From assembly GCA_010015585.1 (NCBI GenBank), contig ML975159.1: a stretch of 64,000 bases of DNA, one strand, 5' to 3'. Positions 6,816 through 49,013 of this stretch are shown in pieces. The position numbers and the translations under genes are program-made. This DNA is from Eremomyces bilateralis CBS 781.70. Lineage: Eukaryota. The notes beneath the pieces were generated by a model. The model worked only from the letters and a program-made list of their open reading frames with translations, had not been told where the DNA came from and ran no database searches. Position 1 is the stretch's first letter; the number at the start of each line of letters is the position of its first letter.

Positions 6816-7634
6816 GTGGGTACGGATCAGAGGATCCGGTGGGCGTTAAGTGAAGACGGACGTCCATGTACCATGGAGATGAGACACGCGCAGGAAAGCG
6901 GTTCCGGTTGTACTCTTATTGGTCGAACATCTATCTTGGGCATATATGTGGTTTTTGAGCCAGCTTTGCCGTCTTTCTGTTAGCTTGTAAAAAGTTGCAC
7001 ACTTCTTTCCTCCAATCTACCGTTTATTTCTACATGCCTGTGTCGTCATTCGTGATGTGTCTCAACTCTTCTTAGCGCAAGTCCATGCTTCGATGTCATG
7101 AACCGCGTCTGCTAGTCGCCCAACCACTATGGCACTTGGTGGGAGGGCTGGGATATGGGACTGGAGATTGGAAAGAGGCAGTTATCGTGGCAATGGGCCA
7201 AACACGGAATTGAGGAAGCAACGTAAGGGTGCTCGACTTCGTGCCAGAATCGAAATGGAGAGTGCCGACGCGACAATGCTGACGCCTCGCATACCGCTGA
7301 GAATGTCCCTGGCGCTACCTAGGCGTAGATAGGTGCGAGTTGCCCGTTAAGTTTGGGATATGCGGAGTCATCGACTGGTAGGTATATCCGGAGTCCATCC
7401 CCGCGTGTCTGTCCAATAGTGCTGGTAGGACACATATCTCTACAGCTGCGAATAGGCACACTACCATGGAGGGATGAGCTATCTCCCCCATATCCCTGGC
7501 AGTGGTAGGGGGTTGAGATCGGTCAAACCTTTAAGGGCCACCGGTTCACCGGCTCCCCGACAGTAACGAACAGCAGCCTGTAGAAAAAAAAAAATTTAGT
7601 TGGATCTTCCAAATTGCGCAATGTTCTCGATCTA

Positions 7635-9400
7635 CTACACAAGTGTGAATGTGTAGATGTATCTTGCATGCCCATTTTTTACAACCGTCCGTACCGTCCC
7701 GAATCGCTCCGCGGCGAGTGGTTCCACCCCATAGAAGACCGGAGAGTCCTCCGTCGTCAGATCCGGCCGCTTCATTTGAAAGCAACCAAGGCGATGATAC
7801 TCCCTGGCGGACGCTCCAGTGGGTTGAACGAGAAGGCCGACAACGGAAGCGTCCAAACGTCGTAGAGTGCTCCCTACGACAAAGTTCTCGATATCTCTCC
7901 AAATCACAGGACCGTCAAGGGAAGCCCAGGACCAAGTTGGAGCGCGGTACACCTCCTGCCTTTGGATCTTATATTGGAAGTGTGGTCTCCGTAATAAATC
8001 GCTGAAGAATCCCTCCGTCCACAGTCCAGCGAGGTAGCTGCCATGCCTCCCATCTGAAGCCAAAGAATACGCGATCCCAGCAACTGCAGGGAGTTTGTCC
8101 TTTTGGTATGTGAGTGCACATGCGGTGAAGAGTTTCACGATATCCTGCCAAGGGTCACCGATGGTAATAAAATTCTCAGCTGTGGAGCTCTTCTCTGGCG
8201 TAGGTGTGTTCGTTTATAATAGTGCGCGTCCAACGGTTCCATCGGGGTTCCATGTGGAAGTACCTCGCAGGCATATGTGTGGAAACACTCCCAGAACACC
8301 TGTTGCCGAGCAAAATGAATCGAGCGTCTGCTAAGAAATCGTTCCTGAACCACCCAGCCTCGCTTGAGAAGTGGGGCGAACCCTTTGACCATGTTGTAGT
8401 AGGAGTCCGCGTAGACAAGACACGTCCTCGGGCCACTGCTTTCCCCAAACCAGCTGTGTGTGCGTGGTACGCTCACATGACAGGGCTGTAGCACTGAGGT
8501 GCTGCGTCGGAAGAACAGGCCGTGAGAAGAATTCGCTGCCCCCATTGCGGCAATGTTAAAGTAAGATCCACCGTAGACATGGCCCATCTTCTGCGATTCT
8601 ATACGCCAGTCCGCAGGATCGTCCTGTAGAATACAGAGGGAGTCGATCCATATGTAGTCGACACTAAATTTCCTGGCAACAGCGACGGCATCCCGGAAAG
8701 TTTGGGGTAAACCTGTCTCTTCCACACCGGCAGCCAGGCTCGGCTCAGTGGCTATAGTTAGAGCGAGCGGCATCACTTTGCCCCAGCAATGACTCAGAGT
8801 GACATATGAAGAGGATGCGGTTTTTCCAGTGAGAGTATCACCAATTTTTGCCAAGTCATCGGTACAGTGGAGTCGAACCCGACCCGGTATCCGGATGTCG
8901 AGGAGTCGCTTTGGAAGAGTCAATGGGCCTAGTGAAGGATCACAGTAGGGATGATCGGTTGGATTGCATGCCGTAAGCCAATTCGATATCTTCTTGAACG
9001 TCCCCTCGGATTCAGTACAGCTATCTAAATTCGTGGCGACCTCCAAGTTTGGCGGACCAAGAGTATTAGTTGGTTGAGCTGCGTAGTACGTTAGTGTATA
9101 GCTGACGGACAAGCCAAGGACGTTTCCACTCAGTAACAAAACATACCACATTGTGAATCTAGCGGTACGACCAGAAAATCCATCAGTCCTACTCTGATGC
9201 CACTGAAAACATGCCAAAAGCGAAGCACTGAAGACCTTGACCTGGGCTGACTATCACCCTAAGTAGATAGGTGGGCCGTTTCCCATATCCTCCGCCACAG
9301 GTTTCGCACGACGGGAATCATTCAAGCTGATGGCGATTTCAGTTTCCAAATGGGTACAGATATAGCACCCTTGGCGGCGTGATCTCTTCACCCCAGGCAG
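7635..9400 (-). pseudogene. HET-domain (heterokaryon incompatibility, TIR-like) gene with frameshift
   Basis: YVTLSHCWG, LPQTFRDAV, YIWIDSLCILQDD, MGHVYGGS and RGWVVQERFLS in ORF 8135-9217. The C-terminal motifs (DKLPAVAGIA, YLAGLW, YRAPTWSWAS) lie in another frame (7635-8138) with no convincing intron between. Intron ~9079-9146. An upstream GCYIC motif near 9355-9370 is followed by a stop. Confidence 0.8.
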
Positions 9401-17528: not shown

Positions 17529-17978
17529 GTTCGCAAAGATCTGAAGGTTCAAGCTTCAATTGAGGAATTGCGCGGTATTAAATAAGTATTTCGAACTCTG
17601 GTGACTCTTATTCGGTGGACCGTGGAGGTGACGTTTATGCGCGTCTGATTGGCTGAAGACCCTGTTGCTGGGTGGACGACAAAGCTTCGTGGAAATGGTA
17701 GTCAAAGGAACAAATTTCCAATTCTTCATGAATCAAAAACGATCTTAGTTTTAATTAGGAAATATGAATTGCTACTCGTAAGCCTGTTCTCGGGGGAATA
17801 CAACGCTTATCATGCTCTCTTTCTCCGCACGAAAGATGGTATGGCATATCCAGATTGTCCAACATGCCCCTATCTCCTCTTGACTCCTTCGTCCTTGCAT
17901 CGCTCCACTCCAATACCTATGATACCTCAAAGGAAAAGGAGTGAGTCAATCCAGTGCCCTCTCTCCGCATCCCCTGTT

Positions 17979-20900
17979 CTAGAAAGAAAAGATCTTTTGG
18001 ATTGAAGCGCGGACCTTTCCCGGTTTCAGGTCCCGTAGATCTATTTTCGCCATGTGTTTAGTTGCAAGGCAAACCAGCAGTTTATAGCTATGGGGTTCAA
18101 ATTCCATAGCTACAATTGGTTCAGAGACAGAATCACGCGGGTCGTGGAATTTTCCTTTGATCCACACGCGAAGACAGCCTGTCCCATTGTAATCGTTCTT
18201 GCATCCACGTCTCCAGGCTACCGCGAAAATGTTGCCATCGAACGATACTGCGGAGGCAGAAATGTGCTCCTCGGGGTCGATACGCCATTCTGCAACTCTC
18301 TTGCCCGCTCGAATAATTTTGATATACGGTCTCGTAACGGTTATATGATTGCTTAGATCCGTGGTGGGGGCGAAATTGAACGATGTCATGAAAGTGTTCC
18401 AGTGCCATACCCGATCCCCTGAGGGCACGTTGTATACGCCGGAGTAGGATGGCCCGCAGACTGCCACTTGATGGCCTTTGGGTGATAGTTCTAGCTGTTT
18501 GACATTGCTGTCCGGGTCCAGCTTGATAACAGTGCAGCCTGAAGTCGCAAATTCTGTCGCGTCGACGCTCTGTTGCTCGTTGAACCAGACAGCAAGTTGG
18601 GTTTGCCCAAGGCCATCTTCGTCGGTTTCTGGAATGTGGAATACCCCAGCAAGAGCGGAGCCATCGTTTTCGGAGAATGCGAGTAGCTTGAGCTTTACGT
18701 CCTTGCTTGAGTCACCCGCTGTTGCCGGCTGAAATTCAAGTGTGCAAATATGTTCTGTAGGCAATCCCCAGATAGTCAATCGGACTTCCCCTGGGAGCTC
18801 CTGCGCAAAGGCGGCCAAAGAGAAGGATCGAGAGAGTACAATCTGCGAAGCCTGAAGGTACTCTTGTTTATGCCAAATGAAGCTGCGCTCCGTTTTTTCT
18901 GGCTCCAGATCAGAATACAACGTTTCAGTGCTCGTCCACTGTAACCCAGTGGCATATTGAGCAAAGCCGATTTCGATCGATCGATAGATGATGACCTGAT
19001 GCGCAGTCGCAAAGTTTAACGCAGTGGTTCTTGCAACTCTAGCTGCACGCGCACCCGTAGCTCTCACGATAAGTAAGGATGGGTGGCAGTGCCTTGCGAT
19101 GCGTTGTCCCGATCTGGCGATCACGGTAGATGTCCCAGGAACGAGAAGGCCGTTGCTCCAATAAAAAGAGTATGCATCGTTACCCTTTTGTTCTACCCAA
19201 GAAGACTTCAATTCGGCAACATCGATGACTCGGCAAATATCACGCCTCGCGCCGTGCTCTTCATGGAATGGTGTCAAGATGTTTTGTTCATGATTTCTCC
19301 ACGAATTTTGGGCGTCTAGATCTCGCTGTTGTACGGGGCGAGGAAAAGTGTCCTGATCTTCGCCTGGAGTAGAACCTTTTGGGACTGGCGGTAGTCGTTT
19401 GATAGGAAGGGATAGTGTGCTAGACGAGCCTTCCGTTTTTGAGTTGCTCCGTTCCAACGGAGACCCAGGTACTAGGTCTCGACTTATGGCTGCAAGTTTC
19501 GCCATCCGGTCATCTCCGGTTTCTTCTTCCTCGTCCGCTGCCGTCACAATAGGGCCAAGTTCTTTATTTGCCCTAATTCCCTGTGAAGCGGCCTTGATTT
19601 TGTCATTGGACAGTGTTGATGGTGATGGTATCTTATTCCTCTCAGGGCTGTTCTCCCCATCGACGTTCGGATCCTGGGATGGAATGACAAGACAGTTCCT
19701 CTGCCAGATCCAGCCAAGACGCTCCTTGCAATCTTGATTCCGTGCCAGCCAAAGGTCATCTTGTTCGCCGAAGATGTCGAAGATCTCGCCCGCCTGGTGT
19801 TTAAGGAAGGGGACTCCTCTATGAGAGCGCTTCTCGGGATCGAACGGTCGTATGCTTGCCACAACATTCAAAATTCTTTGTGGAGGAATGGACTGGATAT
19901 CACGGTTGGAGGAGACATTTGATTTGCCTTTGTTTGGACCCGAAGTGGTCTTGCTTGGAAAATACGGTGGTGACTCGCCCCGTGCAACAGGCTCCGACCG
20001 GATACTGCGTCCCTCGCTACTCACAGAGTCGCTGACTCGGTGGACAGGGGATTCCGTCGGCATGTTGCGGGTGGGAGACTTTGTGGACTCTATCTCCGCT
20101 GTTGCTTCAGGTACGTGTTTGGAGGTTTGAAGTGTCGGCTCAGATGAGATTCTATCGATCTTATTGCCAGTGCGAGTACTTTTTGTCGCAGCCAGCTCGG
20201 CCATCAGTATTTCGTGGGCATCCTCTTGAACTCTTGCTGCTTGCCCCTCAACGCGAGGTTCCTGTTTTGGCCGTTCATCATTCGCTTCATGGACCTGAGA
20301 CTCCAATGGTCCGTATGGGTTTTCGAGTTCTTCAAACGGTTCCACCTCTCTTCGCAAGACTGCTGACTGGAAATTACTCCTAGCCATGTCTCTCTCTTCT
20401 AGTGGATTTGCCGTTGGCAAAGGAGGAACAGGAGGGGGGGCATTAGGCATCGGAGGGGAAGAACCGATACCCAATGAATCATTATTAGCTCCAAACTTGA
20501 ATTGTTCTTCCCGAAGGGCTCGGGCGTCACGCGAGGTTTTGAACGAGTTATCGCAGAGCTCCTGTAATTCATGACTATATTCTTTGGTTGGCGCCCCCGT
20601 CGTTGGCTTTTGATCGACGTTATCATCACCTAGGTGGATGAGGAGGTCTTCGTTCTCTTCCGATACGGGTGGAGGTGAGGAGCCACCAATCCGAATTTCT
20701 TTAGTACCTCTGCCGCTGCTACTACCAGATCTCGTCGAGAGCTGCTGGTCAAACGGGAAATATTGGGACCGTTCATGTAAGGATTTGGCTTTTGCTATCG
20801 TACTCCATCGTCCAGAAGACTCGGGAGAGACCTCCTCCGAAGTATTCGGCGTGTCAAGCAAAGTCAGAGACCTGTAAGGATGATCAGTATTATTACAAAT

Positions 20901-22049
20901 ATTTATGACTGCAACCAAAGCCTTACTGAACTGACTCCAGCGGCATGAAGTCCGAATCTATGTCAGCGAAAGGTCTTATCCAGTCGTGTGATAGGGCCTG
21001 GTCAACTTTGAGCCGCTTCGTCGGGAATGGATGCATAACTGAGACTATGAATGATTGGCCATGATTGCTGACTTGATATGCCATGAGCCGATCATTGGGG
21101 TATTCCACATCGCCTCTGCCGTATTCAAGCTTGGTGCTGGGCCGATCGAAAACCGCTTCCTTCGTAAGCATCTGGTGTGCAATCTCCCCCAATGCCCACA
21201 TATCGGCGGAATAGGCGTCGTATGACGGAGTCTTTCCGGCATCAAGAACTTCGGGGGAGAAAAAGGCTACCGTGCCGGCTAAGATGGAGGAGATACCCTT
21301 CCCATCTGCAATTCGTTTAGAGATTCCAAAGTCCGAAATCTTCACCCACCACTGATTTGGTGGTTCAGATTTGATGAGGATGTTCTGGGGTCGAGAAGTC
21401 ATTAGAAGTGTTCAAAAAAGGGGCAATTAGAGACCAACCGCGGGCTTCAGGTCACGGTGAGCAAAGCCATTGTTGTGCATGAACTCAAGCCCCTCGAGGA
21501 GTTGGAAAGAGATCTCACAAGCTTCATGTTCCGGCAATGTCGCAGCGTTCCAAAGGTAGCTTTGGAGATCCCCATATTCTAAGTATTCCATTGCGATGAA
21601 CAGTGAGCCAACCTCCGGCCCACCATACCAACCGGATGCCTTCACAAAACATCGTTCGTACTGCATTCGATTAGCATTTGCCTCCTCTATATTGATCTCG
21701 TTGGATAGTGTGTACAAACCTTTGGATGGGAAAATTTAGCAATCGCTTCCAGTTCTCTACCGTAATCAATACCAGTGGCTGAGGGGCCAGTCAGAAGGTC
21801 GATCTGCTTCACCGCCCGGAACTTTGGTGGCCCATGACCCTGACTGACAAGTCGCTCTTTGAAAACGGACCCGAAGGCTCCTCGACCAAGTGACGCCTCC
21901 CTCCGCCAGTATTCTCTTTTCGGTTTCGCGCGTCGAGAATGACTCGAATCCGGTACGATATGGAATGTATACCCAGCTTCGACGCCCGTTGGGAGTTTGA
22001 ACTCAGTGACAGCCTCAGTAAGGCCAGAGAATGTTCGCTCAAGCGCCAT
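17979..22049 (-). CDS. Multidomain Ser/Thr kinase: N-terminal kinase + disordered linker + SH3-like domain + C-terminal WD40-like beta-rich region, 4 exons
   Basis: LGRGAFGSV, RAVKQI, ELEAIAKFSH, HRDLKPAN, KISDFG, GTVAFFSPE and DMWALG are intact. Introns ~21661-21719, ~21385-21438 and ~20872-20926 join in frame to the 979-aa ORF. SH3-like stretch at ~19690-19870. WD-like strands (LELSPKGHQVAV, AVSFDGNIFAV, MEFEPHSYKLLV). Confidence 0.85.
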
Positions 22050-22871
22050 GTTAATAGATTCTCTGCATCCTCAAACCCCTCTTAAAGTATCTCTAAGTGT
22101 AAGTGATGATAGATCTACAAATCTTCGAGGAGTATCACATCCGAAATCTTAGTATTGAAGTTTGTAAGGAGTAGCCTCTGTCGCCATATGGTCAAAGTGA
22201 GCTGAGGACATTTGTAGCAACTGTATTCGGTGTTCGATGATCGTCCGGTAGCTGCAACTCTGGAGTTATCTAATTATTCCCGTCATACACCAGAACACAA
22301 TCGGAGGCGCTTCCTGTAGCTGACGGCTATTTCGGACCCCCACCATCGACCTCTCATACACCCTCTTTCCGCTTCTGCGATATCATCCAGCAGAATACGA
22401 ACTGCTGGATATGTCGCCCTCTTATTGGGGGAAGCTCCTGCAAGGCTGAGAATGTGGAGGCTGTGTGCATACTGATTCCGACTCGTGAAACCCAATTGAT
22501 AATCACGCCAGCAAAACGATAATTGCTTACCCCCCAAACCTCCATTGGATGCCCATGGAGTGACCAGAACAGGAAGCCAACAAGTCGAAGTGGTATTTTT
22601 GGCCAGACTCCGGGCCGTTTTTGACTCTACCATTTTGAGCCTCAAGCCGAGCATATATGGTGGATTAGTAACCATCTAGACGCTAGTGCAAGCCGCCCAT
22701 GAGGGACTGTGTCGGCAAGGCTGGAAGCTAATCGCTCGATTCATATGTACCGAACGCTGAACTTTCTTGTACCATGATGAAACACACTTTCAAAAAAGGA
22801 CTGCGGCACTGAATTTAAGCAAACGATTGCAATACACGTTTGGAGCCTTCTTGAGGTCGGAATAAACAACA

Positions 22872-24511
22872 ATGTCAGGCGTCGAATTCGGTCTGGCTGT
22901 TCTAGCTGCGGTTGATATTAGTATTCGGTAAGCAATCTACAGCTGCGTACCAAGCCAGTCCGGCGCTCAATGCCTCTCAAATAGATACGGAAAGTCTCTA
23001 ATCGAAATTTGCACTGCTTTCAAGAATGCCGAAATCGATATTGCAGAGAAATGTCTGCAGGTCAGATACCATTGCACCCGGATCGTCACTCAACTCCAGG
23101 TTCTGAAGAAAGTTTCGAGCCTCGTCAGCAAGGATCAACTGAGAATACATGAAGATATGCTTCTTGTGCTGAAGAGCAAGTTGCAATTAGTTCAAAGCTT
23201 GTTGGATAGTTGCGTGAAAGTTGGACCAAATGGCAAGCAAGAAGTAAAGAAAAAGAAATTTGTACTATTCAAGAGAGACACTTTGCAAAAAGCAGTCGAC
23301 GAGCTGGAAGCCTGGGAGAGCAAATTTGATCCGCTATGGTTTTTGATGATGAAAACAAACGTCCCCGAAATCGACGACGCTCTGAAAGATCCTACCTCAA
23401 TAGAGGGCGGGAATAAGCGCCCGGTCAGCCTCGCTCAAGATCTTCGTAGAGCTCTAAACAGCAACTCCGATAAGACCTCCGGCATTTTCAAACCTCAGAG
23501 CGGTCTCGACTCCGCTGAAATCGAAGATATTCAGAATTCGTCCGCTAAAATCGCTCAACGCCCCGGATCCCACAACCGCCTCGTTCTTGATCGGGTCATT
23601 CCTTATGCGGGATGTGATACAGTCATCATGAAAAAGGACATTCGTGACTTTGCACGAAAGTTGTTCCACGCGGATCCATTGGCGTTTGGCCTGTTGAGTT
23701 GTTATGGAGTGGTTCAGAACAGGGATGTTCCAGGCTCCTTCACAATTGTTTTCCGCATCCCGGAAGGTTCTTGGAAGGCAGACAGTCTTCGAAGCTATTT
23801 GATCGCCGGAGAGACAGAGCAGTCTTACCGAAAGAGACAAGCTTGCGAAAAGTCTCGCAAAGTCTGTTTCCAACGTTCATGCATTCGACTTTGTCCACAA
23901 GAACGTCCGACCAGAAACGATCCTGATTTTGTCGGAGGCCGATGAAGAGATCGGATTAGCATATCTTGTCGGTTTCGAGTCCTTCCGGATGTCTGAAAGG
24001 AGGACTTACCGACAGGGCGACATGAACTTTGAAAGAAACTTGTATAGGCATCCGAATCGACAGGGCCTAAGTCCAATAGAGGGCTATTCCATGCAACATG
24101 ATATCTATAGTCTGGGGGTTTGCCTTTTGGAGATCGGCCTCTGGAAGACATTTATCGAATACGATGAAAAAGGCAATCCCCAACCTTCAGACATTCTTCA
24201 ACTGAAGGAAGCTGCTCTTGGTGTTTCTCAAGCGGTACGTTTAAAGGAGAATATGGTTTCGCTTGCGCGAAAACAGCTGCCACGTTTCCTAGGTACCACA
24301 TACTCAAGCATCGTTATAACTTGCTTGACATGCCTAGATGAAGATAATGACGATTTTGGCGACGACTCAGAGTTCCAGGATGAAGATGGCATCACGGTAG
24401 GAGTTCGATACACGGAAAAGGTGAGCCAGCACCTCAATCTGACACTGCAATTTGAAGCGTTTGCTAATCATCTCGAAGATCATCATGAGACTAAACGACA
24501 TCTTCGTATGA
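22872..24511 (+). CDS. HeLo-like (prion-inhibition) N-terminal domain + pseudokinase (MLKL-like architecture); one frameshift at ~23820
   Basis: Hydrophobic N-terminal helix MSGVEFGLAVLAAVDISIR, then YGKSLIEICTAFKNA after intron 22928-22984. Kinase-fold motifs LAKSVSNVH..FVHKNVRPETIL, AYLVGFESFR, NLYRHPNRQG and HDIYSLGVCLLEIGLW. Final intron ~24421-24478. Frame change at gagc/agtctt. Confidence 0.8.
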
Positions 24512-24979
24512 TAGACAATATATAGCAGTTCCATTTGAATAGCTGTGAGCAAAGAGCAAGACTAAAGTGTAGAAGGTCGAAGGAGGTGAATTGTTCACGG
24601 GTTGCCCATACAAGTAGTCTATTGGATGGCAAGAAAGGTATAACGATGTAGAATCTAAGGAAATTGACTGTGAAGATGCCTCGTGAATGACTCTGGGATT
24701 GTGATGCTGAAGCTGTGAATGCTGCCCGACATCGACATCGAAATTTCGTAGAAAAAAGAAAGAAAGCCTTCGTGCTTGTGGCCTCAGGCATGAAGCGCTC
24801 CCAACGTCATCAAGACCTGATTGGTCAGCTCAACCTCAGACGTCCAAGTCGAATATCTTCTGTATCTCGAGTTCGCCTGCCAAACTTTTGTTTTGCAATA
24901 GCGATCGGATGAAACATACTGGCCACCCTTGGTCCTACCTGCAATTCTGATATCATATCCAGAATTGTAAAGATTTGAA

Positions 24980-28099: not shown

Positions 28100-30844
28100 A
28101 TGGGTGATACATCAGCCAGCGAGCTTGACCGACCTGGTACACTACCACCCGCATCACCAGTTCCGCTCGCCCATCCACCTCAAGTCAGCAATGTTCGAGT
28201 GCAGAGAACAGAGCAATCCAAGTCTACACAAGATTCGCAGCCCACAGAGCGGATCCATTCGCAGGGAGAAGCCCGGATATTACATCCCTCAGGCAGCGCC
28301 TCGCTGGCTGTTCCTACAACCAGGGACGATGACCACCGTCCCGTGATACGGCATACGTGAGTGTTTATCACATATATTGGTCAGATCGGACGGGAATTGA
28401 TTCTTGTTATAGATCCGAGCCCACATTCCACAGCCCCTTACGGCAACACCGGCGACATGTATCGTCAACAAGGAGAATCAAGGTGCGATACCACCTTCCT
28501 ACGATGCAGCATGTCGTCTAATGCGATATAGGAGACGCTCAATGCCAGATCGGAGCACGAAAGCAGCGGCGAAGACGGAACTGTACAACATCGAATCAAC
28601 CAATATATCATAGAGCAAGAGATTGGGCGTGGATCGTTCGGTTCTGTACATTATGCGATTGATCAATTTGGGAATGAATATGTGAGCGCCCCCTTGTTCG
28701 AAGTATCTTTTGTTTTGCTACAGGCATCTGCGGCATGGGGTAACCATAGACGGAAGTGTTTGGCAAATAGGTTGGCTAATGCTTAGAGTACAGGCTGTCA
28801 AGGAGTTCTCGAAGTCGAGGCTACGAAGGCGGAAGCAATCGAATCTGTTACGAAGACCCAGAGGACCACATGCCCGCCGAGGGTTCAACCTGCCGTTTGG
28901 TCATTCTCAGAAGGGGGATCCGAATTCCCTCGATCTAATTCGGGAAGAGATTGCCATCATGAAGAAGTTGAATCATCACAACTTGGTGTCCCTTGTGGAA
29001 GTTCTGGACGCCCCGGAAGAAGACTCGTTGTACATGGTTATGGAGATGTGCAAGAAAGGGGTCGTGATGCAAGTTGGGTTGGACGAGGTAGCTGACCCGT
29101 ATGACTCAGAGACATGCAGATGTTGGTTCAGAGACATGATCTTGGGCATCGAATATCGTGAGCCAACAGTACCCTCGCATAAAGTACTCCGCTAATACTT
29201 GGACCTAGTCCACGCTCAAGGAGTCATACACAGAGACATTAAACCAGACAACTGCCTGATCGATAAGGACGACGTTCTAAAAATCGTCGACTTCGGCGTG
29301 TCCGAAATGTTCGAGAAAGACCGGGAAATGAAAACCTCAAAGTCTGCAGGATCTCCGGCGTTCATGCCACCCGAGCTATGCGTGCCGAAGCATGGCGAAG
29401 TGTCAGGGCAGGCAGCCGACATATGGTCCATGGGTATCACACTATATTGCCTGCGGTATGGCAAAATTCCTTTTGAGAAAGGAGGGGTTTTGGAACTGTA
29501 CGATGCAATTCGAGATGATCAGGTTGAACTTGGCGACGACTGTGATAAAGACTTCCGTAACATGATGAATTGGATACTCGACAAAGACCCAGCGAAGCGG
29601 ATAACCATGGATGAGCTTAGAGTAAGTCGCATATCATCTTAAGGCTAGCGAAGCATTAATTCGTATAGGAACATCCATGGGTCACGAAACGAGGAGTAGA
29701 CCCCTTACTACCGAAGGAGGAAAACATAGCGACTATGATTGAGGATCCGACAGAGGAGGAATGGAATGCTGCCATCACGGGAAACATGACACATCTTCTC
29801 ACCGTGATGAAGGCAGCAAAGCACTTTAAGAAACTCCTTTTTCGGAAACGCCCCGAACTCATGGAAGGCATCTTCGGCCGCGCCTCACATATCGTCCAGC
29901 CCCCCCTCTCGATCGGTGCAACTGATCGGAGACGGAAGTCGAAAAGTATGGATGTGGACGACCGCGTTGCCGTGGCGGCGGCGCTCGCCACAGAAGGCGT
30001 GCATCGGGACATCATCATTTCGGACGATCTGAAGCGAATGCCGAATGAAGCGGATAGAATCGCAGCAGTAACTCGATTGGAGGAGGAACGGCACAAAGAA
30101 AGCGCAAAGCCACTTCTTGGTTCGGAAGACGCGAGAACATCCGTACCTCCAGAGGGGTCTTCTTCAATTACTGCAACGTCAAGGGAAACTTCACGGCAGA
30201 CGTCGAAATCAAGGGATCAAGATGAAGCATTGTATCCTCCACGACAAGAGAGACCACATGGTAAAGGCCATGCGCACGATTTGCTTGAAGATCTCCTCTT
30301 TCTGAACATCGGTCCCGGGCTTCACTACACCGAGCCTACCCCAGGGCTGGACCAGCCCATGAGCAACGCTCCAATCTCTAGCAGCCCATCGTCCACCTCA
30401 CTCCCCTCAACCATCCCTCATGTACGCTCCAGCCACATCCGCATCCTCTCCGACTCCCCTCCCTCCACCGATTTCAACATCTACGAAGATGCCTACCACA
30501 AAGAAGTCACTCGCATCCTCCAAGACCGCCGCGATCGCCAACCGCGGCTCTACCTGACGCGCCGCGTCGAGGCGAGCAAACGGCTGCGAGAAGATCGGGA
30601 GTTGGCGAAGACCTTCGTGAGTGAGGTGGCGGAGAAGAGCAAGAGCTTGTTGAGCGAGGCGCTAGGGAGGCGGAAAGGGGCAGGTGGGGATGCGGGGAAC
30701 GGCGGTGATGGGATGGCAGAGGCGGTGGAGCAGGTGAAGAGGAAGGCGAGGGAGGACGTACAGGCTGGGGTTGCGGATGGACGGGATGGGGTGGTGAAGG
30801 CGGAGCAATCAGGAGACTCTATAATGGAGGATGTCCAGCCGTAG
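28100..30844 (+). CDS. Calcium/calmodulin-dependent protein kinase kinase (CmkC/Ssp1-like), multi-exon
   Basis: INQYIIEQEIGRGSFG, AVKEFSKSRLR, IREEIAIMKKLNH, HRDIKPDN, KIVDFGVSE, AGSPAFMPPE and HPWVT. Confidence 0.9.
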
Positions 30845-42968: not shown

Positions 42969-45900
42969 CAGCTTTTGGTCCCGACATGGGCTTAATAGCT
43001 TAGCGCAATCCCTATCTCCCCATCCCGTAACGTGCCCCGTTTTCACGTCCTTCCATCCCTTTCTTCTTGATATATGAATTAATGATTTCGATACCCCGGG
43101 CGGTAGTTTGTTGGCTGGCGACTGTGCGTACATTATGGAAGAAGCAAGAAGTTGGTCTGTGAGGAGGCTTGCCTTTCCCACAACCTAGATGTTTCTTGGA
43201 GTTGTATCGGTCAGCAGCAGATGCCACCGTAGATGACGACAGGACGGTGTCACGTTTTCCTGGTTTTTGTATATATGCCTATGCTCTCTCTGGTTGATGC
43301 CCTGACTTTCTCAGTCAACGAATATTGGGTGGTAATTTTGCTTCCTATGCGTCAATCGGTTTTCATTGGAGAGGAGCTCTTGGTATTTTAGTTGCATGAC
43401 GATGGCTATTGAGGGATATGTATATGCGGAGTGGGTGTTTGGTGCATAGAGGCACATAGCTAGCTGGAAATACGATAGTATGAAATGACAAGTTTCTCAA
43501 AGCTGTTCATCGGGATTTCTGTCCCCCAACTGGTTGTCACGACGTATGAAGCGACTAGACGGTGAGTCTTTGCCTAGAATTGACAATTTGCATGAAGACT
43601 CTTAAACTTCAGCAGAACAGGAAGGACGAGAGGGAACAGTTAGCATGGGATATCGCCAAACGCCACTACGAGGATCACAAATTGTAATGAGTTATTTTAT
43701 CAAGAGAACTTGGACTTCAATTCGCTATCATAGGAACTATTAAGATGTTCTCCTAGAATTGAGGTGTCTAACTTGCCAGTCTCTTGACCCTCCCTATCCT
43801 TCACTCCCAAAACGACCAACGACATATCACCTATTCTTCTCGCTCTGCACATCTTTCCTGCCCATAGTCCCAATATTTCCGCCTATATGGTCACCAATTC
43901 AGCTCCAAGCAGGGTAACACCTGCGAAGCCAAACGATGACCGTCTATGATCGCTCCAGACTGGGGGGAAGGGCCTTCTTGTTGACATTGATATTGAAGAA
44001 GTGAATGCAAGAGGAATGGAAAATGAGCTGGTAGAATTCGTCGATGACCTTTTTCGCACTTTTCCATACACGGTGAAGTTCTTGTCGATGTACCGCGGCA
44101 TGGAAAATTTGATTCGTTTGATAGAGGGGTAGGGGTAATTGACGTGGGATCTGATCCCGTGTTGGCCATTGTGATAAATGATCATAATAGTTCTCATGAC
44201 CACATCTGCTGGGGCGGACCTATCGGTCGGCTTGCACAACAAATACCCAACTCAATGGGTTAGTGGCGTCACCCAGCTCAGCATACAGCCAAGATAGCAC
44301 TCCACTGAAGCCTTGTGGGTGACTGTCCTGCATCGTTGTGAATGTGAAAAGACAAAAGTCTCTTCCCTTGTCGAAGACATTAGCATACGAACCGCAATAT
44401 GCGAGGACAAGATTTCTTACAAAGTCAGCAGGAATCAGCCATGGGGGTGTGGGCGGGAGGAGCATCGCCCAAAGATCATTTTATTTTCACACATCGGTCG
44501 CAGCGGACATGATGCTGCCGCTAACTAGCACACTGCATGGACAGCGCGCCATTGTGGCCTCGACACGAATCAAAATGCACTTAGGCATGATATAATGTCG
44601 AACGTTGCGGCAAAATGTGTTTTCGTGCAACTCCACTCGACGACTCCTTCTGGATGGATGAATTAGCACATGATCACGAATACAAAGGGGAGAAAGGTTT
44701 ACCAGCTAACAAGCCATTGAACACCACAAAGGAAATCTGCGACGAGACTTCGTGATGGTGGCTAGGAAAGCTATATTTGTCAGAAGTGTGTCAGAGGTTA
44801 TTGCGGATGCAGTGCGTACCTTGAAGTTAAATCCCTTAATCACCCTGGCACTCTGAAGCTGAGATACCTCTCATTCCGACTGTGAGTCTGGCATGACGGT
44901 CTTGCTTGACAATGAAGCATCCACGCCGCGAATGCCATTCATGTAACTGATACTGAAAAGGAACAGAGGGTTTGAGCAGAGCTGAATATCCCTAGGTAGG
45001 GAGTCTAGATCTGATTTGATGAAGAGTGCGGATGAGAAAGTGTGGAGCGGTATACACTAGGTACAAGAGTAAACGAAACTAAAAAAGAAGGCATGGAATC
45101 CATCAAAACAATGAATGAATGCGATATGGCAGTCATGCCCGGCATTCGATGCACTGAAATGAACATGAAATGCTGTAATCACCAGTGGGCGTTTTGCATG
45201 AAAAGTGCTGGAGATGAGCCTTGTCGGGGATTTTGAAGGTGAATCGCCAGGTGTCTGATAGGAAGACAAGGGCGGACACTGTGAGGATGTCGCAAGGACA
45301 CCCGAAAGGAGAAATGGGCTGGTCGAGCATGCGTTAGCCCTCTATGATATTCGAGTGAAGATCATGACTATTCATGAGAGATCGCTGGTGTCGTTACCAT
45401 GCTTAAGGTGGTTATGGTGACAGAGCGGCGTCTGTCACCGAATCTCTCACCTGTTGGGGAACATCGCCCCAACTGATGCTGTCTCATTCCTTGACGGAGT
45501 GAGTTGTATCCACAGCGGAACACGGTACTTAGAAAAACAAGAACTGGGGTTGTTGATAGTCTCTGCAACTCTGGGAAAAAGGCGTACTGTTTGACACCTC
45601 TTCGAGATAGGATATTGGAAAAAGATACCGGTCGCGATGACTCGATATGGAGTTCGACATAGGCGTATTCGGCGTGCCGGCGGTGAAGACGTTGCAGACA
45701 TCCATCCACATGGAGTGACTGAACGAAAAGCGTGGTCGCAGCGCGTGCTACGATGCTTTACTTAGCGGTGTGAAAATGCAAGGCCTCATACGAGGGCCTT
45801 GTACGGACTGGCGGACAATCGGCGTGTCTCTCGGTTGCGCGTGATGAGATTCATTCGCAGAATCTCGGGAAGTGGTGTTAGCGGTGAATCAGCGTGTCCA

Positions 45901-48900
45901 CCAAATATACCTTCTCTCGGTGAGGTGACATGAAAGATTTTTCTTTCGTGGATCTTTATCAGGCTCAAGATCGAGCACTTACGACGATGCCCAAGTTACT
46001 CTGCAGCGAGAGGTCGGGTGGTGCTTACAGCGAAGCACCGGCGTGAATGAAGAACTCCAAAAGTTTCAGTCGGTCGTCAGCGTATCCTGATGCGATCTCG
46101 GCGGCGTGGTGGGAAAGAACAACATCTTTCACGAATGGTATCTGTCCGCAGACGATTCTATGCGAGTACTGCGGATGCCCTCTAAGAGGGACTGGGAGCT
46201 CTGGAACAGCGCAGAGCTAGAAAAGAATTCGTGGAAGATGTAGTTCGATGTATTGTGTAGTGGAGAGTGGAATTTCCGGGATTGGGTGGAGGCGAGAGGT
46301 TGTGTGCGAAAATTCATCGAAGTGATTCCATCGAGTTTGCGTTTGAAAGTTTGGAAGTTTTCGAGTGAAGGGACTCTCGGCGTGATTGACATTTGCTGTG
46401 AGATTTCTTGCTGGTTGACTCGACAGAGTTGGGTTTCTCGATTCGCTTCGTGGACAGAATTTCCTCTGTGGCGACTTCACCATTTGCCGCCGCATTATTG
46501 TCACCGGAGTTTCCGACATGTGCAAAGAAAAGGATTGAAGTGCTTGATGCCCTCATTTCGAAAGGAGTAAATGAGTCCATTGGTTTCATCTCCGGAGGGC
46601 CTTGGCCGCCATACTCAGCTCAGTCAAAGGTGCAGCTGGAGTAGAGCGAGCGCATTGCGTATAGGTAATATCGCTGTATTAACCACACGAATATAATCTT
46701 TTTTAGCTATAATGTCAGCGCGACGGATGGCCTCGTCACTGGTGACGGAGGTTTGGGATGGCCATAGCGGACCACGTTCAGGAAAAGAGCAGACGGAGAG
46801 GATGAGTCCCGATGGACTCACTCTCGACTTCGGGCATAGACAGGATTGTGGGTTCATCCGTGTGTTTCAAATCGACGGTGAAGAAGAGTTGAAAAGTGAA
46901 AGAATTTGCCCCGAGAGGAACCGCGCAGGGTACACTTGGCCGCCTATCTGAGCTCAATCAAAGCTGCAGCTGAGATAAAACGCGTGAGGGGTCCAAAAAA
47001 AGGCGTCTTTCGGATAGAAATTTGTTTGAGCCATAATCGGAAGCGCGACTGATGGCCTGTCATTGCTAACAGTGGTATTGGGGAGCGGCCACAGCGGACC
47101 ACGTTCAAAAAAAGAAGAACAGTCAAGGAGCATACCAAAAGGCTCATCCCAGCTTCGGTCTTGGCGTGAATTTTAGCTCGTGTCGCGTGGAAGAAAGAGA
47201 TCTTACAGAGAGAGCCTCTGGTTGTGGTCGGAAGGTGAATCTCAGTCCGCGGCTTGCAGTACCTGCGCAGATGGATGGATTCTTCACGTGTACCAACTGT
47301 ATGCTGCAGTCGGCAAGTTCATCGTGATTGACGGGCATCAAAATCACGGAGGCTGGGTTGGAATTAGTCAAGTTGAGATATCAAAATAGCACATTCGACT
47401 CACCTGGACATGAAGCAAACGCTCCTAAGATCGGGGGTTTAAGTGTCGGGGGTCAAAGTTCAACGATGTCCGCTCACAACATATACCCATCATGTGCCCA
47501 TATGAGGGGCTGTGAGCGGACCACCCACGTTTGTTGAAAATGGATATCTAGGGGCAGCCTCAGTCGGCGACGTGGTCAGCACGTAGCAGAGGCCTCGTCT
47601 TAACGCTGACGGGGCTGTGCCTAGCCACACAAGCTAGGGAACTGGGGTGTTCTCAAACACACGGAGCTCGGATGAAAGAGCGTTGGCGAGGGAGTGTTGG
47701 CTGGACGGACGGTTGTGTATCAGAACAGTGCGATGGGCCCGGAAAATTGACAGGACAGTGGGGAGTGGACTTGACTGTGATCGGGGATTGAGTTCGGTAG
47801 GGGGCATGATTAGGCATGATGAAGGAAAGAATTGAAAAATCTTCTCATGCGATCTACGCGGTGCCGGATTCCTGAAATCTAACCGTTCCATAAGCATCTC
47901 TAAACCAGTGACTGCTAGTTGCGGACTCACCAAAGTCGACTAAACCAACGTCTGCCAACAAATGGCCAAGGGAATGAAATCTAGGGACAATGAATCCTCC
48001 ACCCGATTAGAAGGTGAAGTTTCAAAGGCAAACGAGTGAACTATGCACTCGGTTAAATAATGGCCGGGGTGAGATTCAACCGTGTACAAGTACTAGGAGT
48101 CCCAAGTCAGAATACAGGATTGCATTGAAAATCAAAGAGTGAACGAGGCACTCGGTCCAAACGGATGACTTGGGTGAGATATGACGTCGCATACAGGTAC
48201 GGTGACCATGTACGGGTGGTCACTCTAGCAAGTGACGTGCGGAAATGCGGAGATCTGGTTGTAGACCGATGTCGTGTGAAGAGATGGGCAGAACACCAAC
48301 AATGTAGTGAGTCGCCTTCAACACGATATCTTGACCAGGCGCTGTATTGCCTGTCTCGGTGACATCTAGGCCGGAGGAGATGGTGATGTTAATTGAGCTG
48401 TTGAATCAGTAACTGCAGGAATATTAAGGCAGAATAACAAGACTCACCGTGTAGAATGGGTAAGGTATTGTATCTGCGAAGTGTATGCAACGCTCATCAT
48501 CTCAAAGTGAATGCAAATACACGAGAGGTTTGATTGGCAATGTTCTCGCGGCGATAGCTAGACTCGATGAAAAGGCGATATGTATTAACTATCCCATGTT
48601 AGCGTGCACAGTAATATGAAGATGGAATGACGTACAGCTAGCTTCTGTCGCCATTAAGTGACGGAGTTGCTGATGGAGAGAGAACCTTGATCCGAGGGTG
48701 AGCTGGTTACGATCAATCGTCACGTAGTGCTCGTCGCTTGTAACTGTTCCTGTAGCCAATCCGAAGAAATGGGATGGTGTGAACGCTTGGGGGGTTGGAG
48801 TTCGTCTTAGTTTCTCCCTACCGGAGTGGTAGGGATACTTGTCGCCAGCACCGCGAAGAGGTGCGAACTCAGCGCTGGCGGAAATGAAGGCTGCTAGCGG

Positions 48901-48982
48901 CAGAGCCAACAGAAACTGGAAGCTGTAAAGAATGAGTGTTATTAAAGCTGAGCGATGGAGTGAGGAAGTGGTGGGTGTCTGT

Positions 48983-49013
48983 GAGGGAGAGAGGGAGAGA
49001 GGGAGAGAGGGAG
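48983..49013 (+). repeat. (GAGGGAGA)n purine microsatellite
   Basis: gagggagagagggagagagggagagagggag. Confidence 0.8.

What the first reader, a model, noticed from the sequence alone, without database searches (positions are those of the whole stretch)
17979..24511. Head-to-head kinase-sensor / HeLo-pseudokinase pair: candidate fungal RIPK3-MLKL-like cell-death module
Seen: two divergent genes share an ~820-bp intergenic region (22050-22871) and are inserted between the conserved genes ARG7 and WDR70. Left is a catalytically intact Ser/Thr kinase (GxGxxG, AVK, HRD, DFG) fused to SH3 and beta-propeller-like interaction domains. Right is an N-terminal hydrophobic helix + HeLo-like helical domain fused to a kinase fold with HKN in place of HRD and GFE in place of DFG, followed by S/T residues (GFESFRMSERRT). 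Known: HeLo/HELL domains (HET-S, HELLP) are membrane-disrupting death domains related to the MLKL four-helix bundle. MLKL is a pseudokinase with GFE at the DFG position, activated by RIPK3 phosphorylation of its activation loop. Inference: a two-gene, amyloid-independent sensor-kinase to executioner-pseudokinase immunity or allorecognition system.
Basis: partly seen in the sequence, partly recalled or inferred. Interest (0 to 1): 0.88.

Follow-up and report, generated by a model that had tools for sequence, protein, structure and literature searches.

The report
Fungal kinase plus MLKL-like gene pair
An active protein kinase gene and a neighbouring gene for a helical-bundle protein fused to a dead kinase sit head to head here and in many other filamentous fungi, which resembles the kinase-and-executioner pair that drives necroptotic cell death in animals, although the executioner-like copy in this genome is broken by a frameshift.

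Summary
The window matches Eremomyces bilateralis CBS 781.70. Two divergent genes share an 823-bp spacer. The left gene encodes a 1300-aa active Ser/Thr kinase, and RNA contigs support two of its introns. The right gene encodes an N-terminal four-helix bundle, linker helices and a pseudokinase (HKN for HRD, GFE for DFG). It carries a frameshift that is present in both DNA and RNA contigs.

The key test, recurrent linkage, passes. Of 40 evaluable non-redundant metagenome loci encoding the pseudokinase family, 29 have a homologue of the left kinase head to head within 0.4-1.3 kb, 4 have it in another arrangement and 7 have none. The partner kinases keep their catalytic residues. Their C-termini vary (WD40, ANK, TPR, KA1, SH3, unknown), and some carry internally conserved 126-bp repeats like those of fungal NLR sensors.

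The N-terminal domain is HeLo-like by language-model features and is a helical bundle in AlphaFold models. No Pfam HeLo model hits it, and the structural matches are weak. The partner kinase is CAMK-like, not RIPK-like.

Function (phosphorylation, killing) is untested. I found the HELL-plus-kinase architecture mentioned in one review. I found no paper that describes the gene pair.

The parts
17979..22049 (-). Left gene: a 1300-aa Ser/Thr kinase with a long C-terminal extension. Exons 22049-21720, 21660-21439, 21384-20927 and 20871-17982; stop codon 17981-17979.
   Evidence: The spliced CDS is 3900 nt with no internal stop. Introns 21385-21438 and 20872-20926 are spliced out in RNA-type contigs of run X3 and not in the DNA runs. 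Exon 4 is one collinear RNA contig piece, 17900-20869. Intron 21661-21719 is inferred from GT..AG and the reading frame only.
20947..21911 (-). Catalytic kinase domain of the left gene (about aa 47-330, interrupted by two introns), with an intact G-loop, beta3 Lys, alphaC Glu, HRD, DFG and APE-type Glu.
   Evidence: Pfam Pkinase hits. Motif positions G55/G57/G60, K81, E99, H178-R-D180, N185, D202-F-G and E229. The intronless L068 homologue is closest to RAD53, CaMK1 and CHK2, E = 3e-25 to 1e-22.
19437..20870 (-). Middle of the left protein (about aa 338-815), with no recognisable domain.
   Evidence: No Pfam family at E <= 0.1. No homologue found. The SH3-like segment has no significant similarity to partner SH3 segments.
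17982..19436 (-). C-terminal 485 aa of the left protein, an orphan region and a possible beta-propeller.
   Evidence: 0 hits among 1.84 billion representative proteins. Language-model neighbours are WD40/ANAPC4_WD40 clusters at 0.90-0.92, a lead only. No tandem DNA repeats.
22050..22872 (.). 823-bp spacer shared by the two divergent genes.
   Evidence: Sequence. One RNA-type contig of X3 runs through it, 21729-22927. In the 29 head-to-head loci the gap between the two tblastn matches has a median of 666 bp and a range of 399-1313 bp.
22873..22928 (+). Right gene exon 1: 18 codons plus two bases, encoding the hydrophobic start of helix 1 (MSGVEFGLAVLAAVDISIR once joined to exon 2).
   Evidence: Sequence. 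Identical N-terminus in the annotated protein P0003. The intron 22929-22985 is spliced in an X3 contig. An intron at this position, just before RYGK, recurs in nearly all 80 loci.
22986..23453 (+). Right gene: the rest of the N-terminal helical-bundle domain plus linker ('brace'-like) helices (protein residues 20-175).
   Evidence: AlphaFold model of this stretch: pLDDT 81, long helices 17-46, 49-75 and 89-113 plus shorter ones. The full-length homologue model has helices 3-29, 36-65, 68-95 and 116-139, then 143-181. HeLo clusters are the nearest neighbours by features, 0.95.
23454..24420 (+). Right gene: pseudokinase domain. It is read in frame 0 up to the break and in frame +1 after it. It contains FVHKNVRPE (HRD position) and GFESFRMSERRT (DFG position plus activation segment).
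   Evidence: Read-through with X at the break. Alignment to the family. In the homologue model the kinase fold spans residues 186-521, with Z 20-22.5 to MerTK, HER2, BRAF, IRAK and RIPK2.
23808..23826 (+). Frameshift (net +1) that breaks the pseudokinase gene in this strain.
   Evidence: Frame 0 meets a stop at 23946-23948, and the family-like sequence continues in frame +1. The deposited gene model P0003 bridges the break with 14 residues unlike the family. No inserted or deleted letters in DNA runs X1 and X2 or in the RNA-type run X3.
24421..24511 (+). Predicted last intron (24421-24478), then the final short exon (24479-24508, IIMRLNDIFV) and the stop codon (24509-24511).
   Evidence: Splicing gives the family's conserved C-terminal end, as in P0003 and its homologues. 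The one RNA-type contig over this place is collinear, that is, unspliced.

Best explanation
This locus is one instance of a conserved two-gene module of filamentous ascomycetes.

Gene A encodes a catalytically competent CAMK-like Ser/Thr kinase. Its C-terminus differs from copy to copy: WD40, ankyrin or TPR repeat arrays, KA1, SH3, or an orphan domain as here. It looks like a ligand-sensing part.

Gene B is transcribed divergently from a spacer of about 0.4-1.3 kb. It encodes an MLKL-like protein: an N-terminal four-helix bundle of the HeLo/4HB kind with a hydrophobic first helix, then linker helices, then a pseudokinase. The pseudokinase has lost the G-loop, the beta3 lysine, the catalytic Asp (H-K-N) and the Mg-binding Asp (G-F-E/D). 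It keeps an invariant Arg and a near-invariant Thr in its activation segment.

The most likely mechanism (inferred, not shown) is as follows. The sensor domain of A detects a cue. A's kinase domain then phosphorylates the activation segment of B's pseudokinase. This releases B's helical bundle to act on membranes and kill or arrest the cell. That would be an amyloid-independent, NOD-independent counterpart of the fungal NLR/HeLo and protease/gasdermin clusters, and a functional analogue of RIPK3 acting on MLKL.

In this strain both genes are transcribed, but B carries a frameshift inside the pseudokinase domain, so the module is probably defunct here.
For: Shown:
- Gene B belongs to a large family. 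1838 proteins scored E <= 0.001 among 8000 candidates, with named members from five classes of Pezizomycotina.
- Linkage. The 80 metagenome loci collapse to 62 clusters, of which 40 have at least 1.5 kb upstream. Of those 40, 29 have a homologue of kinase A head to head, 4 have it within 3 kb in another arrangement and 7 have none. Four further short-flank clusters show the kinase N-terminus head to head at the contig edge, and two (L029, L066) show the kinase just downstream on the same strand.
- Over all 80 loci there are 50 kinase hits in the 339 kb within 3 kb of gene B, against 2 hits in the 436 kb further away.
- An unrelated kinase in the window scores only about 53 bits, against 116-321 bits for the head-to-head partners with a full kinase match.
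- Partners share intron positions with the window's kinase, after FSxxK and after DLKP.
- Partner catalytic residues are kept: beta3 Lys in 33 of 33 aligned, HRD Asp in 31 of 35, DFG Asp in 35 of 35.
- In 119 family members of gene B: H 119, K 119, N 107 (Asp in 1); G 119, F 118, E 76 / D 26; Arg363 in 119; Thr369 as T in 116 and S in 3; D/E at the beta3 position.
- Partner C-termini, in 24 loci: WD40 in 7, ANK in 1, KA1 in 1, weak SH3 in 2, a second kinase in 1, and nothing recognised in the rest. One more has TPR.
- 126-bp repeat arrays reach 87% (L074, WD40) and 85% (L055, TPR) matches. This is the trait reported as enriched in fungal NLR sensor repeats (PMC4986451, passages read).
- Distances among partner kinases and among their pseudokinases correlate: Mantel r = 0.61, with 0 of 2000 permutations as high, over 27 pairs.
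- Fold. The homologue model has pLDDT 84.9 and four long N-terminal helices, then linker helices and a kinase fold. Mouse MLKL 4btf is rank 4 in Foldseek and is the only listed hit aligned over 534 columns; the others span about 300-364.
- The N-terminal 175 aa is nearest to Pfam-HeLo clusters, at 0.95 and 0.92. Its structural neighbour cluster carries HeLo in 32% and DUF7580 in 29% of members.
- Among 48,161 chains, the top 24 for the N-terminal model include NRG1.1 CC-R (Z 9.1), MLA13 (8.3), a wheat resistosome (7.7) and AtMLKL3 residues 10-121 (7.5).
- Both genes are transcribed and spliced.
Against: - No Pfam HeLo, Helo_like_N or SesA hit in 0 of 12 or 0 of 64 family proteins; the two sets overlap.
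- Foldseek finds nothing at E <= 0.001 for the N-terminal model.
- The VIA Z values of 7.5-9.1 lie in the range the tool calls common for helical bundles. Unrelated bundles score as high or higher, for example 8snb at 10.6 and IncA at 9.8.
- That N-terminal model lacks the first 19 residues.
- In Foldseek, MLKL's E-value (1.4e-7) is no better than that of ordinary kinases.
- The partner kinase is CAMK-like, not a RIPK or TKL relative, so the likeness to RIPK3-MLKL is analogy only.
- 7 of 40 evaluable clusters lack a partner and 4 have other arrangements.
- The loci are unnamed metagenome contigs, so taxon sampling is unknown. The Mantel correlation would also arise from shared species history.
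- The window's gene B is frameshifted in DNA and RNA contigs, and its last intron is unspliced in the one RNA contig.
- By my recollection of CAMK-group preferences (Arg at -3), the conserved Thr is not in such a context.
- No experiment on phosphorylation, binding, membrane action or death exists for any member, as far as my searches show.
Confidence: 0.55

Rival explanations
1. The pair is a conserved kinase/pseudokinase signalling unit with no role in cell death. The pseudokinase would be an allosteric partner or scaffold of the neighbouring kinase, as in other kinase-pseudokinase pairs. Its N-terminal helices would be an oligomerisation or localisation coiled coil.
For: Linkage and co-divergence show only a functional tie, not its nature. 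No HeLo-type Pfam hit in either scan (0 of 12; 0 of 64). Structural matches of the bundle are within the generic range, and unrelated bundles score as high.
Against: Language-model neighbours of the N-terminal part are HeLo clusters at 0.95, and a neighbouring cluster of the same architecture carries Pfam HeLo in 32% of members. Several death-domain bundles (NRG1 CC-R, MLA13, AtMLKL3) appear among the top 24 of 48,161 chains. The partners carry NLR-type WD40/ANK/TPR arrays with internally conserved repeats, which fits sensing better than housekeeping signalling.
Confidence: 0.2
2. The pseudokinase protein is a HeLo-type executioner, but the kinase restrains it rather than triggers it. The kinase would act as a guard or antidote whose loss or inhibition unleashes death, or the pair would be an allorecognition (het) locus whose allelic mismatch kills.
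For: The same anatomy and linkage apply, and the direction of control cannot be read from sequence. The partner sensor domains are highly variable and this genome's is an orphan, as expected for fast-evolving recognition genes.
Against: Nothing here tells activation from inhibition. No population data on polymorphism were available. A pseudokinase-only frameshift with an intact kinase, as in this strain, is compatible with either direction.
Confidence: 0.15
3. The adjacency is fortuitous or reflects only a shared bidirectional promoter, without the products acting on each other.
For: 7 of 40 evaluable clusters have no partner and 4 have other arrangements.
Against: 29 of 40 clusters are head to head. 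There are 50 hits within 3 kb against 2 hits in the larger remainder of the flanks. Partner and pseudokinase distances correlate, r = 0.61. Intron positions are conserved in the partners.
Confidence: 0.03

Closest known systems
Animal necroptosis pair RIPK3 and MLKL
   Same: The executioner-like protein has an N-terminal four-helix bundle, linker helices and a pseudokinase with degenerate catalytic motifs. Full-length mouse MLKL 4btf aligns over 534 columns. A catalytically intact kinase is the presumed upstream partner. The activation segment carries conserved Ser/Thr.
   Different: The partner kinase is CAMK-like (RAD53/CaMK1/CHK2 are the best hits), not a RIPK, and a RHIM was not looked for. 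Here the two genes are adjacent and divergent. The partner carries WD40/ANK/TPR or other C-terminal domains. No sequence-level link of the bundle to MLKL was found. Phosphorylation and killing are untested.
Plant MLKLs (AtMLKL1-3, wheat Pm13)
   Same: The order HeLo-type bundle, brace, pseudokinase. The AtMLKL3 N-terminal domain (6ka4_A, residues 10-121) matches the window's N-terminal model at Z 7.5, rmsd 3.7 over 105 residues. The plant proteins are described in 10.1101/681015 (abstract and passages read).
   Different: No neighbouring sensor-kinase gene is mentioned in the passages of the plant papers that I read. The match strength is within the generic range for helical bundles.
Fungal NLR / HeLo (HET-S, HELLP, HELLF) amyloid-signalling gene clusters
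   Same: A two-gene cluster of a repeat-bearing sensor (WD40/ANK/TPR, partly with internally conserved repeats) and a HeLo-type membrane-targeting executioner (PMC12881547 sections read; PMC4986451 passages).
   Different: No NACHT/NB-ARC domain appeared in the 39 partner ORFs scanned. The executioner's C-terminus is a pseudokinase rather than a prion-forming motif. The signal would pass by phosphorylation rather than amyloid templating.
Fungal gasdermin / protease two-gene clusters (HET-Q1/HET-Q2 type)
   Same: An enzyme fused to WD40/ANK/TPR repeats is encoded next to the pore-former it is thought to activate (PMC12881547, passages).
   Different: Here the enzyme is a kinase rather than a protease, and the executioner is a helical bundle plus pseudokinase rather than a gasdermin.
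'HELL domain fused to kinase/pseudokinase' architecture noted in a 2025 review; Pfam DUF7580
   Same: [quoted passage not shown] DUF7580 matches the family's kinase-like part weakly.
   Different: The passages I read mention no neighbouring kinase gene. 'DUF7580' occurs in 0 papers of the library. The window's protein scores 19.6-22.2 bits, under the 27-bit cut-off.

Membership tests
MLKL-like architecture (4HB/HeLo bundle - brace - pseudokinase) | N-terminal four-helix bundle | tested here: inconclusive
   AlphaFold models show four long helices (3-29, 36-65, 68-95, 116-139), and the same in the window's own stretch. Foldseek gives no hit at E <= 0.001. VIA gives Z 7.5-9.1 to NRG1 CC-R, MLA13 and AtMLKL3, within the generic range for bundles.
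MLKL-like architecture (4HB/HeLo bundle - brace - pseudokinase) | Linker ('brace') helices between the bundle and the kinase fold | tested here: met
   Helices 143-148, 153-162 and 168-181 precede the kinase fold in the homologue model. This rests on the model only.
MLKL-like architecture (4HB/HeLo bundle - brace - pseudokinase) | Kinase fold lacking the catalytic residues | tested here: met
   Kinase fold with Z 20-22.5 over residues 186-521. Catalytic Asp present in 1 of 119 members, DFG Asp in 0 of 119; D/E at the beta3 Lys position and no G-loop.
MLKL-like architecture (4HB/HeLo bundle - brace - pseudokinase) | Activation by phosphorylation of the pseudokinase by an upstream kinase, followed by membrane permeabilisation | not testable with these tools
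   Only circumstantial evidence: a conserved neighbouring active kinase and a conserved activation-segment Thr.
Pfam HeLo (PF14479) / Helo_like_N (PF17111) / SesA | Match to the family HMM | tested here: not met
   0 of 12 (E <= 10) and 0 of 64 (E <= 1) family proteins match; the two sets overlap. Language-model features do point to HeLo clusters (0.95, 182 of 256 features), and a neighbouring cluster has HeLo in 32% of members, so distant kinship remains likely.
RIPK3 / RIP kinases | Kinase domain of the RIPK (TKL) lineage | tested here: not met
   The intronless partner L068, 40% identical to the window's kinase, is closest to RAD53, CaMK1 and CHK2, E = 3e-25 to 1e-22.
RIPK3 / RIP kinases | RHIM amyloid motif | not tested
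   No search for a RHIM-like motif was run.
Eukaryotic protein kinase, catalytically competent (left gene) | G-loop, beta3 Lys, alphaC Glu, HRD Asp, Asn, DFG Asp | tested here: met
   All are present in the window's protein, and nearly all are present across the 35 partner kinases examined. Pfam Pkinase hits.
Fungal NLR (STAND) sensors | Central NACHT or NB-ARC nucleotide-binding domain | tested here: not met
   No such Pfam family in the 39 ORFs following partner kinase domains or in the window's 992-aa ORF. Only the repeat part (WD40/ANK/TPR) is shared.
Pfam DUF7580 (PF24476) | Score at or above the curated cut-off of 27 bits | tested here: not met
   The window scores 22.2 and 19.6 bits. 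Among 64 family proteins, 2 pass the cut-off (L033 at 27.7 and L079 at 30.9) and about 20 more give weaker hits.

The most novel reading that the evidence does not exclude
Filamentous ascomycetes would carry a third, previously undescribed class of two-gene regulated-cell-death or immune modules. A NOD-less sensor-kinase (a CAMK-like kinase fused to fast-evolving WD40/ANK/TPR or orphan domains) would switch on an adjacent HeLo/4HB-pseudokinase executioner by phosphorylation. That is a fungal counterpart of the RIPK3-to-MLKL step. It would mean that kinase-gated MLKL-like executioners either predate the split of fungi, plants and animals or arose repeatedly.
Probability: 0.45. Interest if true: 0.9.

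Novelty: new variant of a known kind. Interest (0 to 1): 0.8.

Why it matters
Fungal regulated cell death is currently explained by two routes: NLR-to-HeLo amyloid signalling and protease-to-gasdermin cleavage. Whether fungi have the phosphorylation-gated step that defines necroptosis has been open. A 2025 review noted only that some HELL domains are fused to kinase/pseudokinase domains, and it called for broader study of fungal HeLo/4HB proteins (PMC12881547).

A conserved, divergently transcribed sensor-kinase/pseudokinase pair makes that question directly testable, because the candidate activator and substrate sit side by side. The pair also offers many natural variants of the sensor domain. 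It would extend the 'sensor next to executioner' logic that fungi share with bacterial defence islands.

The broken copy in this genome shows that the module can be lost.

Tried and rejected
1. Whole genome: none is held for this window. Records behind metagenome loci cannot be searched either, so copy number per genome and synteny of ArgJ/WD40 were not tested.
2. Complex prediction: the intronless L068 kinase (residues 36-341) with its neighbour's pseudokinase domain (182-531) gave 'no answer', ipSAE 0.00 in both runs. The handed-in alignments were not used. This is no evidence either way.
3. Short relatives of the N-terminal 175 aa: 0 hits.
4. Relatives of the left C-terminal 963 aa: 0 hits. 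Relatives of its last 485 aa among 1.84 billion representatives: 0 hits.
5. Foldseek on the N-terminal model: no hit at E <= 0.001. Animal MLKL and HET-s do not appear among the 50 VIA rows shown. This does not exclude them.
6. The full-length model searched with VIA listed kinases only, so it says nothing about the bundle.
7. An intronless N-terminus of the family for folding: none found. The intron before RYGK is nearly universal, so the domain model lacks 19 residues.
8. The first kinase alignment (A4) misplaced the exon-1 fragments and was discarded. Several 'single-HSP' partner kinases turned out to contain in-frame introns.
9. SH3: no support for the window's segment.
10. No RNA holder was listed by the run search. 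Run X3 was only guessed to be RNA, and I treat it as RNA because it alone shows three GT..AG / CT..AC joints at my intron positions.
11. Earlier findings of this scan: nothing by sequence or by words.
12. PMC4790977 (the HELL/MLKL paper cited by the review) is not held, so I could not check whether it mentions the architecture or the pair.
13. The four-letter step GGAG=X hit two in-frame places and was dropped in favour of CAGT=X.

Full report
**What is there**

The region holds two divergently transcribed genes. The left gene lies on the minus strand. I built its model from the sequence: exons 22049-21720, 21660-21439, 21384-20927 and 20871-17982. The CDS is 3900 nt and encodes 1300 aa without an internal stop.

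The right gene starts at 22873. A 56-nt first exon encodes MSGVEFGLAVLAAVDISIR. An intron follows (22929-22985), and then a long exon. The spacer between the two start codons is 22050-22872, 823 bp.

The flanking ORFs are an ArgJ enzyme (E = 4.7e-138) and a WD40 protein. The best database match of the right protein is hypothetical protein P152DRAFT_514695 of Eremomyces bilateralis CBS 781.70 (E = 8.8e-282). The two are identical except where the deposited model splices around the break. So the window is that genome or a near-identical one.

**The break**

The right reading frame changes from frame 0 to frame +1 between about 23808 and 23826. Frame 0 runs into a stop at 23946-23948. The sequence that matches the family (SLTERDKLAKSLAKSVSNVHAFDFVHKNVRPETIL...) continues in frame +1. 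No intron can account for this.

Laying public runs on 17900-24700 showed no changed, inserted or deleted letter in two DNA runs or in a third run from another sample and study. The DNA runs may be the source of the assembly, so they are not independent.

Only the third run shows joints, at 20869>20925, 21384>21439 and 22926>22984. These are exactly my introns 3 and 2 of the left gene and intron 1 of the right gene. I therefore treat that run as RNA. It follows that both genes are transcribed and that the frameshift is present in the transcript too.

The right gene is thus genuinely broken in this strain. The predicted last intron (24421-24478) yields the family's conserved C-terminal end when removed. 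It is not spliced in the single RNA contig that covers it.

**The right protein and its family**

Reading through the break with X and searching gave 1838 proteins at E <= 0.001 among the 8000 candidates scored. They are 430-635 aa long and 40-49% identical to the query. Named members come from Dothideomycetes, Eurotiomycetes, Lecanoromycetes, Leotiomycetes and Sordariomycetes.

Pfam sees only weak kinase-family hits and weak DUF7580 hits. A profile search of solved structures hits the C-lobes of B-Raf, RAF1, LIMK1 and PERK (best E = 5.5e-7).

An AlphaFold model of an intact member (P0004, with 119 sequences in the alignment) has pLDDT 84.9. It shows four long helices (3-29, 36-65, 68-95, 116-139), three shorter helices (143-181) and then a kinase fold. 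The kinase fold superposes on MerTK, HER2, BRAF, IRAK1/4 and RIPK2 at Z 20-22.5 over residues 186-521.

Across 119 members:
- The HRD position reads H (119), K (119), N (107); Asp occurs once.
- The DFG position reads G (119), F (118), E (76) or D (26).
- The beta3 lysine position holds D or E.
- There is no glycine-rich loop.
- The activation segment keeps an invariant Arg and a Thr (T in 116, S in 3).

This is a conserved pseudokinase, not a decayed kinase.

**Is the N-terminal domain HeLo/4HB-like?**

The evidence is mixed but leans to yes.

For:
- The nearest language-model neighbours of residues 1-175 are two clusters in which 93% and 98% of members carry Pfam HeLo (scores 0.95 and 0.92).
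- The nearest structural neighbour is a 513-aa cluster with HeLo in 32% and DUF7580 in 29% of members.
- Full-length mouse MLKL (4btf) is rank 4 in Foldseek and is the only listed hit aligned over 534 columns, that is, collinear across bundle and kinase fold.
- In an exhaustive comparison of the window's own domain model with 48,161 chains, the top 24 include Arabidopsis NRG1.1 CC-R (Z 9.1, rmsd 2.9, 98 residues), barley MLA13 (Z 8.3), a wheat resistosome (Z 7.7) and the AtMLKL3 N-terminal domain (Z 7.5).

Against:
- No Pfam HeLo, Helo_like_N or SesA hit in either scan: 0 of 12 and 0 of 64 family proteins, the sets overlapping.
- No short relatives were found.
- No Foldseek hit at E <= 0.001 for the domain model.
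- The tool itself warns that Z below about 13 is common among helical bundles, and unrelated bundles rank as high.
- That model lacks the 19 residues of exon 1, because an intron at that place is nearly universal in the family.

**The decisive test: linkage**

I fetched 80 metagenome loci that encode family members and searched them with the window's kinase domain. After collapsing near-identical loci, 62 clusters remain and 40 have at least 1.5 kb upstream.
- In 29 of the 40, a homologue of the left kinase lies head to head. The gap between the matches is 399-1313 bp, median 666 bp.
- In 4 it lies within 3 kb in another arrangement.
- In 7 none is seen.
- Four clusters with shorter flanks show the kinase's N-terminus at the contig edge in the same orientation, and two show the kinase just downstream on the same strand.

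Over all 80 loci there are 50 kinase hits in the 339 kb within 3 kb of the pseudokinase gene, and 2 hits in the 436 kb beyond.

The partners are specific relatives:
- The head-to-head partners with a full kinase match score 116-321 bits, against about 53 bits for an unrelated kinase elsewhere in the window.
- They share two intron positions with the window's gene.
- They keep the catalytic residues: beta3 Lys in 33 of 33 aligned, HRD Asp in 31 of 35, DFG Asp in 35 of 35.
- Distances among partner kinases track distances among their pseudokinases (Mantel r = 0.61, with 0 of 2000 permutations as high, 27 pairs). Shared species history would contribute to this as well.

**The partner's variable end**

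The window's C-terminal 963 aa have no detectable relative anywhere, no Pfam family and no tandem repeats. Only a language-model lead points to WD40-type propellers for the last 485 aa.

In 24 other loci, the ORFs that follow the kinase domain carry:
- WD40 propellers in 7 loci
- ankyrin repeats in 1
- KA1 in 1
- weak SH3 in 2
- a second kinase domain in 1
- nothing recognisable in the rest

One tandem-arranged partner carries TPR_10/TPR_12 repeats.

The repeat arrays have a 126-bp period. They reach 87% (L074, WD40), 85% (L055, TPR) and 73% (L058, WD40) nucleotide matches between copies. [quoted passage not shown] No NACHT or NB-ARC domain was seen.

The kinase domain itself is CAMK-like. The intronless partner L068 is closest to RAD53, CaMK1 and CHK2 (E = 3e-25 to 1e-22).

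**How it most likely works**

Shown:
- a conserved, mostly divergent gene pair
- an active kinase with interchangeable putative sensing domains
- an MLKL-like order of helical bundle, linker and conserved pseudokinase
- transcription of both genes here

Inferred: the kinase phosphorylates the pseudokinase's activation segment on sensing a cue, and this frees the bundle to attack membranes. The direction of control (activation or restraint), the cue and the outcome (death, arrest or something else) are open.

The likeness to RIPK3-MLKL is functional analogy. The kinase is not a RIPK. The bundle's kinship to MLKL is at most distant.

In this strain the pseudokinase gene is frameshifted, so the module is probably inactive.

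**What is known**

[quoted passage not shown] It describes NLR/HeLo and protease/gasdermin two-gene clusters (PMC12881547; passages and section 18 read).

In the passages returned by my term searches within the papers I opened, I found no mention of a neighbouring sensor-kinase gene. Those papers were PMC10197012, PMC9815663, PMC5485727, PMC12258605, PMC8778642, PMC5374152 and 10.1101/681015. The listings of my seven library searches also showed none. 'DUF7580' occurs in no paper of the library.

The original HELL/MLKL paper (PMC4790977) is not held, subscription journals are mostly missing from the library, and I read no supplements. The claim 'not in print' is therefore limited to these searches.

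**Verdict**

The SH3 call and the propeller call are not. The interpretation passed the computational tests that could be run, most clearly recurrent linkage with variable partner domains. It remains unproven at the level of function.

I rate it a new variant of a known kind: a sensor-next-to-executioner cluster with a kinase/pseudokinase link. Interest is high.

Noticed in passing
window 24421-24478: The predicted last intron of the right gene must be removed to give the family's conserved C-terminal end. It is retained in the only RNA-type contig that covers it (X3 record 13, collinear over 22984-24700). Contigs keep only the dominant form, so the extent of splicing is unknown.
   Followed up: partly
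window 21729-22927: One RNA-type contig of run X3 runs through the whole 823-bp spacer, from exon 1 of the left gene into exon 1 of the right gene. This could mean overlapping divergent 5' leaders, a long leader of one gene, or DNA carry-over.
   Followed up: no
window 21960-22049 (-); loci L068, L065, L017, L010, L018, L026, L058, L066: Partner kinases share a short motif ahead of the kinase domain: LPDLVRDSKLET, VPDIVRLSQLDT or SDLVADSKLDT. The window's version is LTEAVTEFKLPT. It is specific to this kinase family in the sequences I saw and could be a docking or regulatory element.
   Followed up: no
L007 and L024: These two loci have pseudokinase genes at least 95% identical. The partner kinase is on opposite strands upstream: 8279-9276(-) in L007 against 7456-8450(+) in L024. 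This suggests a local inversion or an assembly difference. Likewise L003 clusters with L041 but shows no kinase hit upstream.
   Followed up: no
L041 6041-6820 (-): A second protein-kinase domain (Pkinase E = 4.8e-27) lies in the ORF that follows the partner kinase's own C-terminal ORF. The partner there may be a tandem kinase, or a further kinase gene may be adjacent.
   Followed up: no
L064 4028-5674 (-): An ORF with a weak HET-domain hit (E = 2e-4, 22.2 bits, just under the cut-off) lies about 2.7 kb beyond the partner kinase. This hints that the pair can sit among other incompatibility-type genes.
   Followed up: no
window 28947-29435 (+): Another protein-kinase-like ORF is only 28-31% identical to the left kinase, so it is not a paralogue of the module.
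   Followed up: no
window 44001-50000: GC skew rises to 0.14-0.27 over 6 kb, the strongest in the window. I did not look at it.
   Followed up: no
window 17982-20870 (-): A 963-codon open, transcribed exon has no detectable homologue. Even the genome's own annotated protein was not returned by two searches. Either the deposited gene model omits this exon or the databases lack it.
   Followed up: partly
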